A stretch of DNA of 64,000 nt from NCBI GenBank assembly GCA_964344935.1, contig CAYFPL010000008.1, positions 76,754-140,753 on the forward strand, written 5' to 3'. Position numbers and translations under genes: made by a program. Below are positions 27,750 through 32,772 of the stretch, piece by piece. The notes beneath the pieces were generated by a model. It was not told the origin of the DNA. It searched no databases and saw nothing but the letters and a program-made list of their open reading frames with translations. Positions within the stretch are counted from its first letter, which is position 1, and the number at the start of each line of letters is the position of its first letter. Origin of the DNA: an uncultured Rhodospirillaceae bacterium. Lineage in GTDB: Bacteria > Pseudomonadota > Alphaproteobacteria > GCA-2731375.

Positions 27750-27933
27750 ATGAAGTTCGAGCAAACGGAACGGCAAACGATTTGTCGGATGCCTCGCTCT
27801 CCGATGAATATTTTTTGTGTCTGCATTAAACACGAATAGATAGACTATCGTCTCAAGGCCAATTCCAACTCATTATGTGGACGGTGGATTGGTCGCCTAC
27901 TCTTGTATCTGTAGCCGTAGATTGGCGTGGGGT

Positions 27934-29580
27934 ATGAGAAAACATTTCTGTTGTGGGCTATTCGCTGCGATCATGTTGGTTGCCCCGCCATCGGGAAGCC
28001 TACACGCCGCCGCACCAGTTCAGTCAGCCGTTACACTTGAGACATTGGCAGATCGCATAGCGCGACTGAAAGGGCTGTCCAACCCAAATATTGGTCTCGC
28101 TGAATCTCAAGTAATTCAATGGGCAACCTACCGTTGGACGCGCCGGCTGCTGGAGCGCGAACGCTATACCCATCCCGATATCGTCTTGTATTGGGTCAGG
28201 CGCAGCCGGGTGGCACGTTTTGCCTCTGACACCAATAAATTGGTTGAAAAGCTGCGGCCGGGCTCCGACTTCGCCGCTCATCTCAAACAGGCCACCGACA
28301 AGTACCGTGAGATGGAAAAAATGGCGGAAGTGACCCGCTACCACTCGGATATCAATCACGCCGATAAAACGAGACTTCTGAAAACTTTCAAAGACCCTCG
28401 GCACCGTCGGCTGGTACAGGGGTTGGTGCAGTCGTTGCTGGATGATCTAGGGGAACTTGACCCGGAAACCAACGATAGCTGGCGGCCGTTCTATGAATAT
28501 CTCCATGGGGATATCTTCGACCATGAGCATTGGGCAGAGGGCGAACTCAATAAGGATCTCAAGGTCCAAAAGGACATGGCACAGGTCTTTCTCGATGGAT
28601 TGTATGAAGAGGGACGGCTGGATGTAGTGTCGAAGCATGAAGTCTCTGCGCTTATGAGGTTCGATGCAGAGGAGGCCAGCTACCTGGGCGCGTTGTTCAT
28701 GACCGGACTGGGGCCGCAGGACACACCGCGAAAGGCGTTGGCTTCTGCGTATCTGGACTATGTCATGGCATTTGATTCCTGGCTGACGGACATGATTACC
28801 CGGCCCAATGTTATTCAGTCCGACCGTCATCTTGATGATTTGTGCACGGTTTTTCCTTGCCAGATAAGTCTGCGCCGCCGCGCCGCCTGGCTTCGACACG
28901 GCTATCAGATATTGGCGGTTGACCTGCTGTCGACCCTTCCCGACCGCATCATCGACGGTCAGGCGTTCTCTCGTCGATTGAACGACGAGGAACAGGAACA
29001 GATGCGCCATACCCGCGAACGCCTAAAGGAATTTGCGGAAGATTGGCGGCGAAACGGAAAGTTGGCGAGCCCACTGTTTGCTGTTGTCCTGCCCGGTCCA
29101 AACGACACCATCGATTGGCAATGGGGCGGCTGGTTGGCCTGGGAATGGGTAACGGACAAGGAGGTCAAGGACTGGCGCAGAACGGGACGCGTGGTGGACG
29201 CGTTTGATATGGTCTGGCTGCTGCCGGCCGACGCCGTGGGGCGAGTCCCCGATCGTTTCGAGGCATTGCTGGAAATGGGAGCCAAACAGGTCATTTTGGC
29301 GTTGTCGCCCTGGATTCTCGATATGAAGGCAGCACTTGAATGGCCGTCTGGGCCTCTGCTGGAACTGCACAGGCGCGGCTATTTCCTGGGTATTGAAAGG
29401 TCTGGATGCTACGACGATCCCATGTTGTGCTGGATTGATTATGATCCCAATAAAGGCGACCTCGGCGCGGTGTCCAGACGGGTGTGCGATATCTATCGCA
29501 ATCACGGATATCGAAAATTCACAGTTAGTTTTGCGCCCGGATGGGGCAAACCCGCGCAACAATTGACCTGCGCGGATTGA
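27934..29580 (+). CDS. Secreted hypothetical protein, operon gene 1
   Basis: Signal peptide MRKHFCCGLFAAIMLVAPPSGSLHAAAP. The ~549-aa protein has no recognisable domain. It is preceded by an AT-rich promoter-like region. The track ORF starts at 27877. Confidence 0.55.
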   Translation: MRKHFCCGLFAAIMLVAPPSGSLHAAAPVQSAVTLETLADRIARLKGLSNPNIGLAESQVIQWATYRWTRRLLERERYTHPDIVLYWVRRSRVARFASDTNKLVEKLRPGSDFAAHLKQATDKYREMEKMAEVTRYHSDINHADKTRLLKTFKDPRHRRLVQGLVQSLLDDLGELDPETNDSWRPFYEYLHGDIFDHEHWAEGELNKDLKVQKDMAQVFLDGLYEEGRLDVVSKHEVSALMRFDAEEASYLGALFMTGLGPQDTPRKALASAYLDYVMAFDSWLTDMITRPNVIQSDRHLDDLCTVFPCQISLRRRAAWLRHGYQILAVDLLSTLPDRIIDGQAFSRRLNDEEQEQMRHTRERLKEFAEDWRRNGKLASPLFAVVLPGPNDTIDWQWGGWLAWEWVTDKEVKDWRRTGRVVDAFDMVWLLPADAVGRVPDRFEALLEMGAKQVILALSPWILDMKAALEWPSGPLLELHRRGYFLGIERSGCYDDPMLCWIDYDPNKGDLGAVSRRVCDIYRNHGYRKFTVSFAPGWGKPAQQLTCAD

Positions 29581-29589
29581 GCGGCGCCA

Positions 29590-30786: not shown

Positions 30787-30787
30787 C

Positions 30788-31786
30788 ATGAGGTGGTCTC
30801 GCATCATATCGCCCTTGCTGCGTGCGCCGGTGCTGGTCGTCGGGCTATTGCTTTTTGGTGGTTCGCTATCTTCGGCCTTGGCTGGTTTTTCGATCAGTTG
30901 TGGGAAATGTTGTATCTGTGCCGCCTGTTGTGCTAGCGGTGGTAGTAGCAGTAGTGGCAGTAGCGGCGGCAGTTTCTGGAGTCCGCCGCCCGATGCCAGT
31001 CACCTCCGGCCGGCAAAACCGAAGCCACCCCGCAGAAGCAAGGCCACCCGCGCCTATGAAAAGACCGTAGCCGCTGAAAAATTGAACCTTCCGGCCGAGA
31101 TCATTCCCCTGGCCGCACGGGTCCCCGGCAGAGACATACCGCTCGAGGATGAAACCAGCGCCGACATCACACGCAAATCCCTGCATTTTCGCTGGGGCCG
31201 TCCAGATTTTGGAAACAGTCCATACGCATCTTTGGCCTTTGCACCTGAAGGTCAGTTCCTGGCCGCGGAAAAACAAGACAAGAGGCTGCACCAGTCTCTT
31301 TCCATATTGGCGACGGCTTCGCAGTGGCAAGATCGAGTGTCTTCGACAAGTCCCGAAGACAGCCATTTTCTTGCAAGTGAAGCAGCGTTCGCCATGCTGG
31401 GGATGAATCTCAGGGTGAGTGTAGAGGCCGATGACAAACCGTTGTACGGCGTGCCGCAATCCGCCTTTGAAGAATTCAGGAGGTGGATTAGCGAAGCTAG
31501 AAACGCTGAACGTCAATTGGATGCTTTCAAGCAAGGTTATGAAGCCGCCCTCATTCAATTGGCAGAAAAAAAGAAACGGGTAAGCGGAGATTGTCTCGCC
31601 GATAACCGTTGCTCTGGCCCAAACGAGGTCAATGTCATGCAGGAGATCAGTGAAGCCTCCAAACGCCTCCAGATCCAGTTACAGACGATCAACCGTCAGA
31701 ACGATTTCATTGAGGAACGAAAACGCGAGATCAACGACAAGATCCGTTACTACGTCGAGCTTTTGCCGAATCAGAGAGACCAATGA
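30788..31786 (+). CDS. Secreted hypothetical protein with an N-terminal Cys cluster, Gly/Ser linker and C-terminal coiled coil, operon gene 3
   Basis: Signal/TM segment, then SCGKCCICAACCASGGSSSSGSSGGS. The C-terminal region is coiled-coil-like (KRLQIQLQTINRQNDFIEERKREINDKIRYY). The start lies 2 nt after the gene 2 stop. Confidence 0.55.
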   Translation: MRWSRIISPLLRAPVLVVGLLLFGGSLSSALAGFSISCGKCCICAACCASGGSSSSGSSGGSFWSPPPDASHLRPAKPKPPRRSKATRAYEKTVAAEKLNLPAEIIPLAARVPGRDIPLEDETSADITRKSLHFRWGRPDFGNSPYASLAFAPEGQFLAAEKQDKRLHQSLSILATASQWQDRVSSTSPEDSHFLASEAAFAMLGMNLRVSVEADDKPLYGVPQSAFEEFRRWISEARNAERQLDAFKQGYEAALIQLAEKKKRVSGDCLADNRCSGPNEVNVMQEISEASKRLQIQLQTINRQNDFIEERKREINDKIRYYVELLPNQRDQ

Positions 31787-32772
31787 TCGTCTCGCGCGGC
31801 CTCACACTTGGCCTGCTTCTGGCAATTCTCCCGGTCGCGGCGAGTGCCGCGTCATGTCCACCACATTCGGAATTCGCCAGACAGATAACTGGTGAGGGGG
31901 AGGTTCGCACCTTTTGCCGGTGCCTACCAGGATATGATCCCAAAGGGGATAGCTGCGTACGCGCGAACCGAATGGCGCCAGGCACGGAGAAATGGAAAGC
32001 ACCAAGGGACAGCGCAATTCCTGCTTCTGTGCGCAAGGTACTATCGAATCCTGATGGGCAGAAACAGACCCTTTACAATCTAGAGCAGGCCTTGAGAGAA
32101 CGGCCGGGAAATGCCGCGGTCAGGCATGCCATTGCTTATGTTCAAGGCCTGCAGAAAGGAGATGCCCTAAGGGAATTCGGTTTTCGCAAAAGCACTTCAC
32201 CAAAGGCGGATCTGATCCTTGATGCACTTGCGCGAAGCCACGGCGATTGGGAAGGCAGTCTTCGTTACCTGGAAGGTGTCCGTGAACGGCTTGGGAACGA
32301 CCCCCATGTGGAGGAGGCCTTGCGTTATGTCAGGGCAAAAATGGAGGCAACCGCCAAGGGGTCGAAGCCGCAACAACGGCCGCCCATCGCCAAAAACCGC
32401 ATCTCCCGGTATGACGACAAAGAGATATTGGTTTTCTTCAATCAGGACCTTGCCGTCACTTTAGCCATCCTTGAAATCTGGGCCCGGGACGAAGCGGTCG
32501 GGGATGCGAAAGGGTCGGCTATGGACATGCTCCTGCATGATGTCATGCCCGCCGCTATGGAAATCCGCCGCCGACAAAGGGCGGGGGCGTTGTCGGGGGT
32601 GAAAACCGAACAGACATCGTCTGAAGTAAATGCACGTCTGATTTATGATGAACCGACGGAGGAGGAATTGAGGGCTTTGTTCGAAGATGATCGAATCCCC
32701 GGGAAACCGAAAAAGGATCCGACGTGGAACGAAAAGACCGTGAACTGGATTAAGGAGCTAATTGGCCGCTAA
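31783..32772 (+). CDS. Secreted hypothetical protein with an EGF-like Cys motif, operon gene 4
   Basis: Signal peptide MIVSRGLTLGLLLAILPVAASAAS. CPPHSEFARQITGEGEVRTFCRCLPGYDPKGDSC fits C-x-C-x2-G-Y-x6-C. ATGA overlap with gene 3. Confidence 0.55.
   Translation: MIVSRGLTLGLLLAILPVAASAASCPPHSEFARQITGEGEVRTFCRCLPGYDPKGDSCVRANRMAPGTEKWKAPRDSAIPASVRKVLSNPDGQKQTLYNLEQALRERPGNAAVRHAIAYVQGLQKGDALREFGFRKSTSPKADLILDALARSHGDWEGSLRYLEGVRERLGNDPHVEEALRYVRAKMEATAKGSKPQQRPPIAKNRISRYDDKEILVFFNQDLAVTLAILEIWARDEAVGDAKGSAMDMLLHDVMPAAMEIRRRQRAGALSGVKTEQTSSEVNARLIYDEPTEEELRALFEDDRIPGKPKKDPTWNEKTVNWIKELIGR

What the first reader, a model, noticed from the sequence alone, without database searches (positions are those of the whole stretch)
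27750..32772. Translationally coupled four-gene operon of signal-peptide proteins of unknown function in a lower-GC island
All four consecutive plus-strand genes (27934, 29590, 30788, 31783) begin with a cleavable-looking signal peptide. They are tightly coupled: 10-nt and 2-nt intergenic gaps, then an ATGA overlap. A ~130-bp AT-rich promoter-like gap precedes them. The stretch looks several percent lower in GC than the flanking carB/greA and P450 genes. None of the four products matches a domain I recognise beyond TPR-like helices in gene 2. This is the signature of a horizontally acquired periplasmic or cell-surface module of undescribed function. It is wedged between an orphan rubredoxin and a P450-SDR pair.
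Basis: partly seen in the sequence, partly recalled or inferred. Interest (0 to 1): 0.8.

Follow-up and report, generated by a model that had tools for sequence, protein, structure and literature searches.

The report
Undescribed mobile operon of four exported proteins
Four tightly packed genes in an uncultured alphaproteobacterium encode exported proteins of a rare gene module found only in metagenomes; its largest protein has a confidently predicted fold with no solved relative, and what the module does is unknown.

Summary
Four + strand genes (27934-29580, 29590-30786, 30788-31786, 31783-32772) each start with a Sec-type signal peptide. They are separated by 9 nt, 1 nt and an ATGA overlap. 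Pfam, NCBIfam, PHROGs, PADLOC and PDB sequence searches find only TPR repeats in gene 2.

The genes are not random orphans. Exhaustive HMMER finds about 39 distant clusters of gene 1. In 11 other metagenome or MAG loci these sit beside relatives of genes 2, 3 and the N-terminal Cys hairpin of gene 4. I call the set module A-B-C-D. Genes 1 and 2 are fused into one protein elsewhere (P0038).

A congeneric contig (TrxB 91% identical) keeps carB-greA-DUF454-SDR-AsnC-ELM1-TrxB but lacks rubredoxin, all four genes and the P450. GC3 is about 10 points below the window mean. Other copies lie next to transposases.

Best reading: a horizontally mobile, Sec-exported, probably non-enzymatic multi-subunit envelope complex of unknown function. 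Interest is moderate.

The parts
27750..27933 (+). 184-nt AT-rich (46% GC) intergenic region between the rubredoxin stop and the g1 ATG; presumed promoter and RBS region
   Evidence: Sequence read; GC. No sigma-70-like hexamer pair was found here, so promoter function is inferred only.
27934..29580 (+). g1 (548 aa), 'B' component. Signal peptide aa 1-25; all-alpha domain about aa 30-375; small Trp-rich alpha/beta domain about aa 380-460; Cys-containing C-terminal extension aa 465-548, modelled with low confidence and unique to this copy.
29047..29331 (+). g1 residues 372-466: the most conserved part of the family (GGWLxWxW ... GRxWLLPxG; Trp403 invariant among the 25 aligned sequences), a small alpha/beta domain
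29590..30786 (+). g2 (398 aa), 'C' component. Signal peptide aa 1-30; TPR repeats; family-specific C-terminal region (APWWxxxYxNxAL ... SGLVMTPDNEEW-COOH).
   Evidence: Pfam TPR_19, TPR_12, TPR_2 and TPR_14 above their cut-offs. 30% identical over 327 aa to the C-terminal half of the fusion protein P0038, E 5e-27. Matches P0008, P0011 and P0019 with E 1e-19 to 1e-23.
30788..31786 (+). g3 (332 aa), 'D' component. Signal peptide aa 1-32; Cys cluster; Gly/Ser- and Pro-rich linker; conserved core (FRWGRPDFG ... SPEDxHFLASxAxFAMLG); C-terminal region read by eye as helical/coiled-coil, with a conserved Cys pair (C269, C275).
   Evidence: Homologues P0004 (36% identity, 95% coverage), L005 7074-8051, L008 5039-5953, L010 10052-10987 and L011 3055-3996. 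The coiled coil is read from the sequence only; no structure model was made for g3.
30899..30931 (+). Cys cluster CGKCCICAACC, starting six residues after the predicted signal-peptidase site of g3
   Evidence: CGKCCICxxCC is identical in P0004 and in the L005 homologue. It is absent from the L008, L010 and L011 subfamily.
31783..32772 (+). g4 (329 aa), divergent 'A'-type component. Signal peptide aa 1-22; 4-Cys hairpin motif aa 25-58; then an apparently orphan domain with no detectable homologue, read by eye as helical.
   Evidence: Only self-hits among 5.8 billion proteins. The N-terminal 52 aa are 43% identical to the protein at the same position in L003, E 2e-8. That L003 protein and L007 3699-4685 match the N-terminus of the A-family HMM (E 1.6e-4 and 2.5e-5). 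The direct profile comparison A4 against g4 is not significant.
31855..31956 (+). g4 Cys hairpin motif CPPHSEFARQITGEGEVRTFCRCLPGYDPKGDSC
   Evidence: The pattern 'signal peptide, then C-x(2)-G-x(n)-R-x(n)-[YF]-C' recurs in the A-type proteins of L003, L007, L008, L009, L010 and L015.
27463..34248 (.). Variable segment relative to a congeneric contig: rubredoxin (27567-27749), g1-g4 and P450 (32997-34229), all absent between DUF454 and the SDR gene in the relative
   Evidence: Gene table of JGI 3300072015 contig (60 kb); TrxB 91% identical; left-flank synteny DUF502-Sel1-SDR-carB-greA-DUF454.

Best explanation
The block is an accessory, horizontally mobile operon. It encodes the four subunits of a Sec-exported protein assembly belonging to a previously undescribed module, which I label A-B-C-D. 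In this window the order is B = g1, C = g2, D = g3, and a divergent A = g4.

After export, the TPR protein g2 binds g1. g3 is an elongated subunit with a Pro/Gly-rich linker, a C-terminal region that looks coiled-coil, and in this subfamily a six-cysteine N-terminus. g4 is an accessory subunit whose N-terminal Cys hairpin is probably disulfide-bonded. Tight translational coupling would give fixed stoichiometry.

The g1 family conserves aromatic, aliphatic, Arg and Asp positions but no His, Cys or Ser positions typical of hydrolases. I therefore take the assembly to be structural or ligand-binding rather than enzymatic, acting in the periplasm or cell envelope.

Shown: the genes, their coupling, the signal-peptide-like N-termini, the recurrence of the module, the g1-g2 fusions, the lack of any fold relative for g1, and absence of the block from a close relative. 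Inferred: physical complex formation among all four, the compartment, the non-enzymatic role, and the direction of transfer. The biological function is not known.
For: Coupling: gaps of 9 nt and 1 nt, then an ATGA overlap. The same 1-nt C/D junction occurs in L003 and L005.

Export: all four products and nearly all relatives have one N-terminal hydrophobic segment with an AxA-type site and no strongly hydrophobic (membrane-spanning) internal segment; only two weak internal windows pass the threshold, in g2 and g4.

Module recurrence:
- L008 and L010: A-B-C-D.
- L009 and L004: A-B-C.
- L011: B-C-D.
- L003: C-D-A'.
- L005: BC fusion, then D.
- L007: B+TPR, a coiled-coil protein, then an A-like protein.
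- L014: B-C.
- L015: A-X-B.

Fusions that imply g1 and g2 act together: P0038 is a full g1-like plus a full g2-like protein. P0008, P0011 and P0019 join the g1 helical half to the g2 C-terminal half. P0005 and P0031 are g1-like with ordinary TPRs.

g1 is a real folded protein: AF2 pLDDT 81 for the whole protein and 84.5 for the C-terminal domain.

No catalytic-type conservation: positions at least 70% conserved are Y, R, F, E, L, D, P, G, A and W only.

Accessory and mobile: the block is absent from a relative with the same flanks and 91% identical TrxB. GC3 and codon index are low. IS200/Y1, IS3, IS21 and tyrosine-recombinase genes lie next to other copies. Two pattern scans of 185,579 GTDB species representatives found none.
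Against: - No experiment or co-folding shows that the four proteins bind each other. Fusion evidence covers only g1 and g2.
- g4 is linked to the A family only through a short N-terminal motif and one intermediate sequence; the direct profile comparison was not significant.
- Signal peptides were judged by eye, not by SignalP.
- Lack of conserved His, Cys or Ser does not exclude an unusual enzyme.
- Bulk GC equals the right flank. No flanking repeats or insertion scars were found. With a single comparator, the block could have been lost in the relative rather than gained here.
- The GTDB scans depend on short peptide patterns and could miss divergent copies.
Confidence: 0.5

Rival explanations
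1. A secreted multi-component toxin or effector. One form would be an alpha-helical pore-forming or host/competitor-targeting complex, with the g1 domain as the active module. This domain is also embedded in giant signal-peptide proteins of Elusimicrobiota.
For: - All components are exported and mostly helical.
- The distribution is sporadic and linked to mobile elements.
- The g1 domain is recruited into 3,300-5,200-aa proteins, several with signal-peptide-like N-termini; two of them (P0020's cluster, P0023) are annotated as Elusimicrobiota.
- SmhB and MakE, components of tripartite pore-forming toxins, appear among the non-significant Foldseek hits.
Against: - No strongly hydrophobic internal segment or beta-tongue exists in any component.
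- The components are not paralogues of each other.
- In the giant proteins the domain is mostly internal, not a C-terminal toxin tip.
- No cytoplasmic immunity-like gene and no dedicated secretion gene is linked.
Confidence: 0.15
2. A conflict system carried by mobile elements and acting at the cell envelope, for example phage or conjugation exclusion from the periplasmic side.
For: - It is variable between close relatives.
- Other copies lie next to transposases and recombinases.
- It is patchy across lineages and codon adaptation is low.
Against: - There are no PADLOC or PHROGs hits.
- No copies were found in IMG/VR, phage or plasmid collections.
- The window's neighbours are not known defence genes.
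- Exported soluble proteins are atypical for known defence systems (general knowledge).
Confidence: 0.1
3. A periplasmic metal-handling (for example copper) or redox module centred on the CGKCCICxxCC cluster of g3 and the Cys motifs of g1 and g4. It might be linked functionally to the adjacent rubredoxin, P450 and SDR genes.
For: - Six Cys within 11 residues are strictly conserved in three g3 homologues.
- The rubredoxin and P450 are co-variable with the block relative to the close relative.
Against: - The Cys cluster is missing from the D proteins of L008, L010 and L011, although A, B and C are conserved there.
- No other locus has rubredoxin, P450 or any metal-transport gene nearby.
- GC3 of the rubredoxin (0.656) and P450 (0.703) is close to the window mean, unlike g1-g4.
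Confidence: 0.07
4. Four unrelated lineage-specific hypothetical genes that merely sit together, some possibly not coding, with no joint function.
For: g1 and g4 gave only self-hits in the word-indexed search of 5.8 billion proteins.
Against: - The exhaustive search finds a g1 family.
- Neighbours are conserved across at least 11 independent loci.
- Natural g1-g2 fusions exist.
- The AF2 model of g1 is confident.
- GC1, GC2 and GC3 of all four genes differ from one another, with GC2 lowest, as in the other window genes.
Confidence: 0.03

Closest known systems
TPR-scaffolded periplasmic or envelope assemblies (e.g. NlpI, BamD, CpoB/YbgF of Tol-Pal, PilW/PilF, Tgl, PrsT)
   Same: g2 is a signal-peptide TPR protein encoded next to, and in other organisms fused to, its presumed partner g1. 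This fits the general logic of an exported TPR adaptor holding other envelope proteins.
   Different: NCBIfam scores for MamA, PrsT, BcsC, PilW, Tgl and SctY are 16-38 bits against cut-offs of 70-858. No lipobox, beta-barrel, pilus, Tol or exopolysaccharide genes are linked. The partners g1, g3 and g4 have no relatives in those systems.
Tripartite or bipartite alpha-helical pore-forming toxins (ClyA family: Hbl, Nhe, AhlABC, SmhABC, MakABE, XaxAB)
   Same: Both are short operons of 330-550-aa, mostly helical, secreted proteins. SmhB and MakE appear in the Foldseek list.
   Different: Those matches are not significant (E >= 0.37, TM <= 0.20). g1 has no hydrophobic head or beta-tongue. The four proteins are not paralogous. 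A TPR component is foreign to that family.
Polymorphic toxin or giant secreted protein architectures
   Same: The g1 domain occurs inside 3,300-5,200-aa proteins, several with signal-peptide-like N-termini; two of them are annotated as Elusimicrobiota.
   Different: The domain is usually internal. The four giant-class hits scanned (P0020, P0023, P0027, P0042; 1,570-4,964 aa), and the 1,062-aa P0025, have no recognised trafficking, RHS or toxin domains. No immunity gene is evident.

Membership tests
TPR repeat superfamily (g2 only) | Tandem 34-residue helix-turn-helix repeats recognised by TPR profile HMMs above their gathering scores | tested here: met
   TPR_19 35.0 bits (cut-off 25), TPR_12 34.2 (30.1), TPR_2 32.2 (27), TPR_14 30.3 (23.5).
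Named TPR equivalogs: MamA, PrsT (PEP-CTERM), BcsC, PilW, Tgl, SctY | Whole-protein NCBIfam score at or above the curated equivalog cut-off | tested here: not met
   MamA 37.8 against 200; PrsT 30.9 against 312; BcsC 16.2 against 858; SctY 18.6 against 70; PilW 17.4 against 154; Tgl 15.8 against 225.
ClyA-family alpha-pore-forming toxins (tripartite Ahl, Smh, Mak, Hbl, Nhe) | ClyA-like elongated helical bundle with a hydrophobic head or beta-tongue | tested here: not met
ClyA-family alpha-pore-forming toxins (tripartite Ahl, Smh, Mak, Hbl, Nhe) | Components are paralogues of one another | tested here: not met
   All-against-all BLASTP of g1-g4 and their relatives shows no cross-matches between the A, B, C and D classes except through the fusion proteins.
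Bacterial lipoproteins (Lgt/LspA/Lol pathway) | Lipobox [LVI][ASTVI][GAS]-C at the end of the signal peptide, conserved in homologues | tested here: inconclusive
   g1, g2 and g3 have none. g4 (..VAASAAS-C25) fits the relaxed PROSITE-style rule as I recall it, and gives a sub-threshold NCBIfam lipoprotein-signal hit (13.4 against 19.3). In the L003, L007, L008, L009 and L015 homologues the residue before the equivalent Cys is E, L, E, R or Q. In the L010 homologue it is S, but an Arg at -4 breaks the rule. The Cys therefore looks like part of a conserved hairpin rather than a lipidation site.
Known anti-phage defence systems (PADLOC) and phage protein families (PHROGs) | Profile match to any component | tested here: not met
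   0 families for g1-g4 and three related proteins at E <= 0.01.
Polymorphic toxin systems | C-terminal toxin domain on a trafficking scaffold, followed by a cognate immunity gene | tested here: not met
   The g1 domain is internal in most giant proteins, e.g. 2188-2522 of 3357 and 4058-4399 of 5246. The giants scanned have no RHS, filamentous-haemagglutinin or other trafficking domains. Every downstream gene here is itself exported.
A-B-C-D module defined in this report (not a published family) | B (g1-like) gene adjacent to or fused with a C (TPR with APWW-type C-terminus) gene, with D (g3-like core LASxxAxAMxG) and an A-type protein (signal peptide plus Cys hairpin) in the same operon | tested here: met
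   B, C and D are met by sequence. A is met only at the level of the N-terminal motif, through the L003 intermediate.

The most novel reading that the evidence does not exclude
The A-B-C-D module is a new kind of mobile, Sec-exported envelope machine. Its largest subunit has a helical domain and a Trp-rich alpha/beta domain, neither with a solved relative, and a dedicated TPR adaptor. It would carry out a function not covered by any described system, for example an inter-bacterial or anti-predator conflict device acting from the periplasm or cell surface. Elusimicrobiota would have incorporated its core domain into giant secreted proteins.
Probability: 0.25. Interest if true: 0.7.

Novelty: categorically new. 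Interest (0 to 1): 0.5.

Why it matters
If the module is a functional unit, it adds a new set of protein families to the bacterial cell-envelope repertoire: one confidently predicted fold without a solved relative, a specialised TPR partner, and a six-cysteine N-terminal motif. It gives a concrete, small (4.8 kb) and transferable target for expression and structural work.

It also shows how word-indexed searches can label a gene an orphan when exhaustive profile searching plus gene-neighbourhood comparison reveals a conserved, mobile module.

Its rarity limits its general importance. There are about 39 clusters among 1.84 billion representatives, no cultured host, and no hits in the GTDB representative genomes. 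Without a phenotype it remains a well-defined unknown rather than a discovery of function.

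Tried and rejected
- Pfam and NCBIfam on g1-g4: only TPR in g2.
- PHROGs and PADLOC: nothing.
- Word-indexed homologue search: self-hits only for g1 and g4, one homologue for g3.
- PDB sequence search with the g1-family profile hit only the TPR tails of the fusion proteins, which was uninformative. The g3-family, A-family, g4, L005 fourth-gene and L015 middle-gene searches found nothing.
- The afdb50 library was unavailable.
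- Genome-contig scans with g3 and g1-subfamily patterns: nothing. A2 was too divergent to give a pattern.
- The first metagenome scan found nothing; the second gave 4 loci.
- Viral contigs, phage and plasmid collections: nothing.
- Flanking direct or inverted repeats as insertion scars: only short chance-level matches.
- Promoter and terminator scan: nothing above shuffled expectation in the upstream gap.
- Rfam: only a tRNA elsewhere in the window.
- Literature: no hits for PRJEB17505 or the motif CGKCCIC. A paper on giant genes was not relevant to this domain.
- Exact-match look-ups of greA and of the NCBI form of g1 found no contig.
- Rejected ideas: MamA or magnetosome link (TPR-only, far below cut-off); lipoprotein sorting or polysaccharide export system (no lipobox conservation, no linked transport genes); ClyA-type toxin (no fold or hydrophobic-head support).

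Full report
**What is in the sequence**

The window carries four consecutive + strand ORFs: g1 27934-29580 (548 aa), g2 29590-30786 (398 aa), g3 30788-31786 (332 aa) and g4 31783-32772 (329 aa). Read directly, the junctions are TGA-9 nt-ATG, TGA-1 nt-ATG and an ATGA overlap.

Each product starts with a basic n-region, a single hydrophobic stretch and an AxA-type site: LHA|A25, ARA|D30, ALA|G32 and ASA|A22. A hydropathy scan finds no strongly hydrophobic internal segment in any of them; only two weak windows pass the threshold, in g2 (139-157) and g4 (215-233). SignalP was not available, so the signal peptides are an informed reading rather than a prediction score.

The gap upstream of g1 is 184 nt at 46% GC, against 58% for the window. 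A simple sigma-70 scan finds nothing in it.

- carB 23255-26491
- greA 26564-27037
- a DUF454 gene on the minus strand
- rubredoxin 27567-27749
- P450 32997-34229
- SDR 34249-34968
- then a CHASE5-PAS hybrid histidine kinase on the minus strand

**Composition**

Bulk GC of the block is 56.0%. This is only the 8.5th percentile of same-size windows and is identical to the right flank, so 'lower-GC island' is weak on that measure.

Third-position GC is different. It is 0.617, 0.622, 0.574 and 0.579 for g1-g4, against 0.698 +/- 0.043 for 36 other genes of the window (Mann-Whitney p = 0.0009). On a leave-one-out codon index g3 and g4 are the two lowest genes in the window, g1 is level with the lowest other gene, and g2 is fourth lowest among those other genes. 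The neighbouring rubredoxin (0.656) and P450 (0.703) are close to the window mean.

**Are they orphans?**

Pfam, NCBIfam, PHROGs and PADLOC give nothing except TPR repeats in g2. The named TPR equivalogs (MamA, PrsT, BcsC, PilW, Tgl, SctY) score far below their cut-offs.

The word-indexed search of 5.8 billion proteins returned only self-hits for g1 and g4. For g3 it returned one homologue, P0004 (36% identity).

An exhaustive HMMER pass over 1.84 billion cluster representatives changed the picture for g1. It found 39 proteins with E <= 1e-3, the best non-self hit being P0005 at 3e-42. Most are 430-540 aa with N-terminal signal peptides. Eight are domains inside 3,300-5,200-aa proteins, several of which have signal-peptide-like N-termini. 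For two of these eight, the sources name Elusimicrobiota MAG hypothetical proteins. The four giant-class hits I scanned (1,570-4,964 aa) have no Pfam domain apart from one marginal OEP match.

**A conserved module**

The contigs that carry these relatives show the same neighbours again and again. I call the classes:
- A: signal peptide, a Cys hairpin motif, then a helical domain
- B: g1-like
- C: TPR protein with an 'APWW...' C-terminal region, g2-like
- D: g3-like core, '...LASxxAxAMxG...', followed by a region that looks coiled-coil

The observed gene orders are:

| Locus | Order |
|---|---|
| L008, L010 | A-B-C-D |
| L009, L004 | A-B-C |
| L011 | B-C-D |
| L014 | B-C |
| L012 | IS3 transposase, truncated B, C |
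| L005/L006 | IS200/Y1 transposase, BC fusion, D, and a 364-aa exported protein |
| L007 | B+TPR, a 397-aa protein that looks coiled-coil, and an A-like protein |
| L003 | C-tail, D, A' |
| L015 | A-like, a 444-aa exported protein, B; embedded among IS21 istA/istB, a DDE transposase and three tyrosine recombinases |

The window is B-C-D-A'.

The strongest functional link is between g1 and g2. P0038 (795 aa) is a full g1-like protein joined to a full g2-like protein (30% identity over 327 aa, E 5e-27). P0008, P0011 and P0019 join the helical half of B to the C-terminal half of C (E 1e-19 to 1e-23). P0005 and P0031 are B followed by ordinary TPRs.

The 1-nt C/D junction seen here is the same in L003 and L005. 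The post-signal-peptide motif CGKCCICxxCC of g3 is identical in P0004 and in the L005 homologue. It is absent from the D proteins of L008, L010 and L011, so it is a subfamily feature.

g4 is the weakest member. Only its N-terminal 4-Cys motif (CPPHSEF..FCRCLPG..C) is conserved, with the protein at the same position in L003 (43% identity over 53 aa, E 2e-8). That protein in turn matches the N-terminus of the A-family HMM. A direct profile comparison of the A family with g4 aligns the motif but is not significant.

**Structure**

With a 25-sequence alignment, AlphaFold2 models g1 at mean pLDDT 81.2 and pTM 0.73, with about 90 or higher over most of residues 30-460. The model has an all-alpha domain of 17 helices (30-375) followed by a small alpha/beta domain (380-460). 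That small domain holds the most conserved residues of the family (GGWLxWxW, GRxWLLPxG; Trp403 invariant among the 25 aligned sequences). The last 85 residues are specific to this copy and modelled with low confidence.

Fold searches found no relative:
- Foldseek against PDB gave a best E of 0.19.

On present evidence, then, both parts of g1 lack solved structural relatives. AFDB could not be searched.

Across 45 aligned family members, the positions conserved in at least 70% are Tyr, Arg, Phe, Glu, Leu, Asp, Pro, Gly, Ala and Trp. No His, Cys or Ser is conserved. I take this as a weak argument for a binding or structural protein rather than a hydrolase.

**Is it an island?**

Proteins at least 90% identical to several window proteins are annotated 'MAG ... 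Alphaproteobacteria bacterium', so the host is an uncultured alphaproteobacterium.

One related 60-kb JGI contig, whose TrxB is 91% identical, has this gene order: DUF502, Sel1, NMO, SDR(252), carB, greA, DUF454, then 134 bp, SDR(234), AsnC, ELM1, TrxB.

The window has the same chain with two differences:
- Rubredoxin, g1-g4 and P450 (about 6.7 kb) lie between DUF454 and the SDR gene.
- The hybrid kinase lies between SDR and AsnC.

The block therefore sits in a variable spot and is dispensable in a congener. The indel also includes the rubredoxin and the P450, which have host-like codon usage. Either g1-g4 inserted into an older rubredoxin-P450 unit, or the relative lost the whole segment. One comparator cannot decide between these.

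No flanking repeats were found. The family was not detected in two pattern scans of 185,579 GTDB species representatives, nor in phage, plasmid or IMG/VR collections.

**How it most likely works**

*Shown:* four co-oriented, translationally coupled genes for proteins with signal-peptide-like N-termini; recurrence of the same protein classes in other lineages; natural B-C fusions; a confidently modelled g1 with no fold relative; absence of the block from a close relative; association of other copies with mobile elements.

*Inferred:* the products meet after Sec export and form a complex. In it the TPR protein g2 holds g1. g3 contributes an elongated subunit, apparently coiled-coil, with a Pro/Gly-rich linker and a six-Cys N-terminus. 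g4 contributes a subunit whose Cys hairpin is probably disulfide-bonded. The complex acts by binding rather than catalysis, in the periplasm or envelope.

A speculative detail is that the acidic, aromatic C-terminal tail of g2 (…TPDNEEW-COOH), conserved in the closest C proteins, could dock into a TPR groove in the way EEVD tails do in Hsp70/Hsp90 co-chaperones. That comparison rests on general knowledge and was not tested.

I put 0.5 on this general model. The biological role is unknown.

*Rivals:*
- A secreted multi-component toxin (0.15). It lacks fold support, hydrophobic segments and paralogy.
- An envelope conflict or exclusion system carried by mobile elements (0.10). It has no match to known defence or phage families.
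- Metal or redox handling linked to the Cys cluster and the rubredoxin/P450 genes (0.07). The cluster and those neighbours are not conserved elsewhere.
- A chance neighbourhood of unrelated orphans (0.03). The synteny and fusions contradict it.

**Comparison with known systems and verdict**

It works most like exported TPR-adaptor assemblies. It is not a member of any named one: the equivalog tests failed and the partners are unrelated. Membership in ClyA-type toxins, polymorphic toxins, lipoprotein systems and known defence systems was tested and not met, or was inconclusive only for a lipobox-like sequence in g4 that is not conserved.

I class it as outside the known kinds. It comprises new protein families and a new conserved module. 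This reflects absence of any detectable relationship, not a demonstrated new function.

Interest is moderate (0.5). It is a clean, compact and testable unknown with a fold that has no solved relative. It is also very rare, found only in metagenomes, and without a phenotype.

Noticed in passing
window 27934-27973: The NCBI protein for g1 (P0001, 535 aa) starts at Met14. That start removes the n-region and half of the hydrophobic core of the signal peptide, so the public annotation probably mis-calls the start and hides the export signal.
   Followed up: partly
window 34993-37242 (-): A CHASE5-PAS-HisKA-HATPase-receiver hybrid histidine kinase lies between SDR and AsnC. It is absent at that position in the related 60-kb contig. 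This is a second indel right next to the four-gene block.
   Followed up: partly
window 27567-27749 and 32997-34229: The rubredoxin and the cytochrome P450 both have host-like GC3, and both are missing from the relative together with g1-g4. They may be a redox pair that was split by insertion of the four-gene block, or part of one larger variable segment.
   Followed up: partly
window 47758-52529 (-): Three tandem paralogous DHA2/EmrB-type MFS transporter genes (529, 528 and 529 aa) sit head to tail with 1-4-nt spacers. The region has a strongly positive AT skew (0.18-0.29).
   Followed up: partly
window 17321-20419 (+): A 1032-aa ORF combines weak cytochrome P460 and c-type cytochrome (CBB3-type) matches. 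This is an unusually large fusion for a P460-type protein.
   Followed up: no
window 56983-59679 (+) and 60934-62523 (+): A TPR + GT41 (O-GlcNAc-transferase-like) protein of 898 aa lies two genes upstream of a B12-binding radical SAM enzyme.
   Followed up: no
L015 7102-14565: A B-family gene (P0018) lies immediately next to IS21 istA/istB, three consecutive tyrosine recombinase genes and DDE transposases. This is the most explicit mobile-element context for the family.
   Followed up: partly
L005 8055-9149: In the locus with the g1-g2 fusion, the gene after the g3 homologue is a 364-aa exported protein. By eye its C-terminal half (GDILLV..., SHALTFIG, ...VCSERAALVV) resembles a permuted papain/NlpC-like hydrolase. 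Pfam and PDB sequence searches gave no support.
   Followed up: partly
L010 1922-2740 (-) and 11134-12366 (+): By eye, the A-B-C-D operon of this soil contig is flanked by an amidase_2-like gene and a gene with an STLK penicillin-binding/transpeptidase motif. This could hint at a peptidoglycan connection, but it was not tested and is not seen at other loci.
   Followed up: no
window 41328-41403 (-): A single tRNA-Lys(TTT) gene is the only Rfam or ARAGORN hit in the window. It is 8.5 kb from the block and not adjacent to it, so it is not an obvious integration site.
   Followed up: yes
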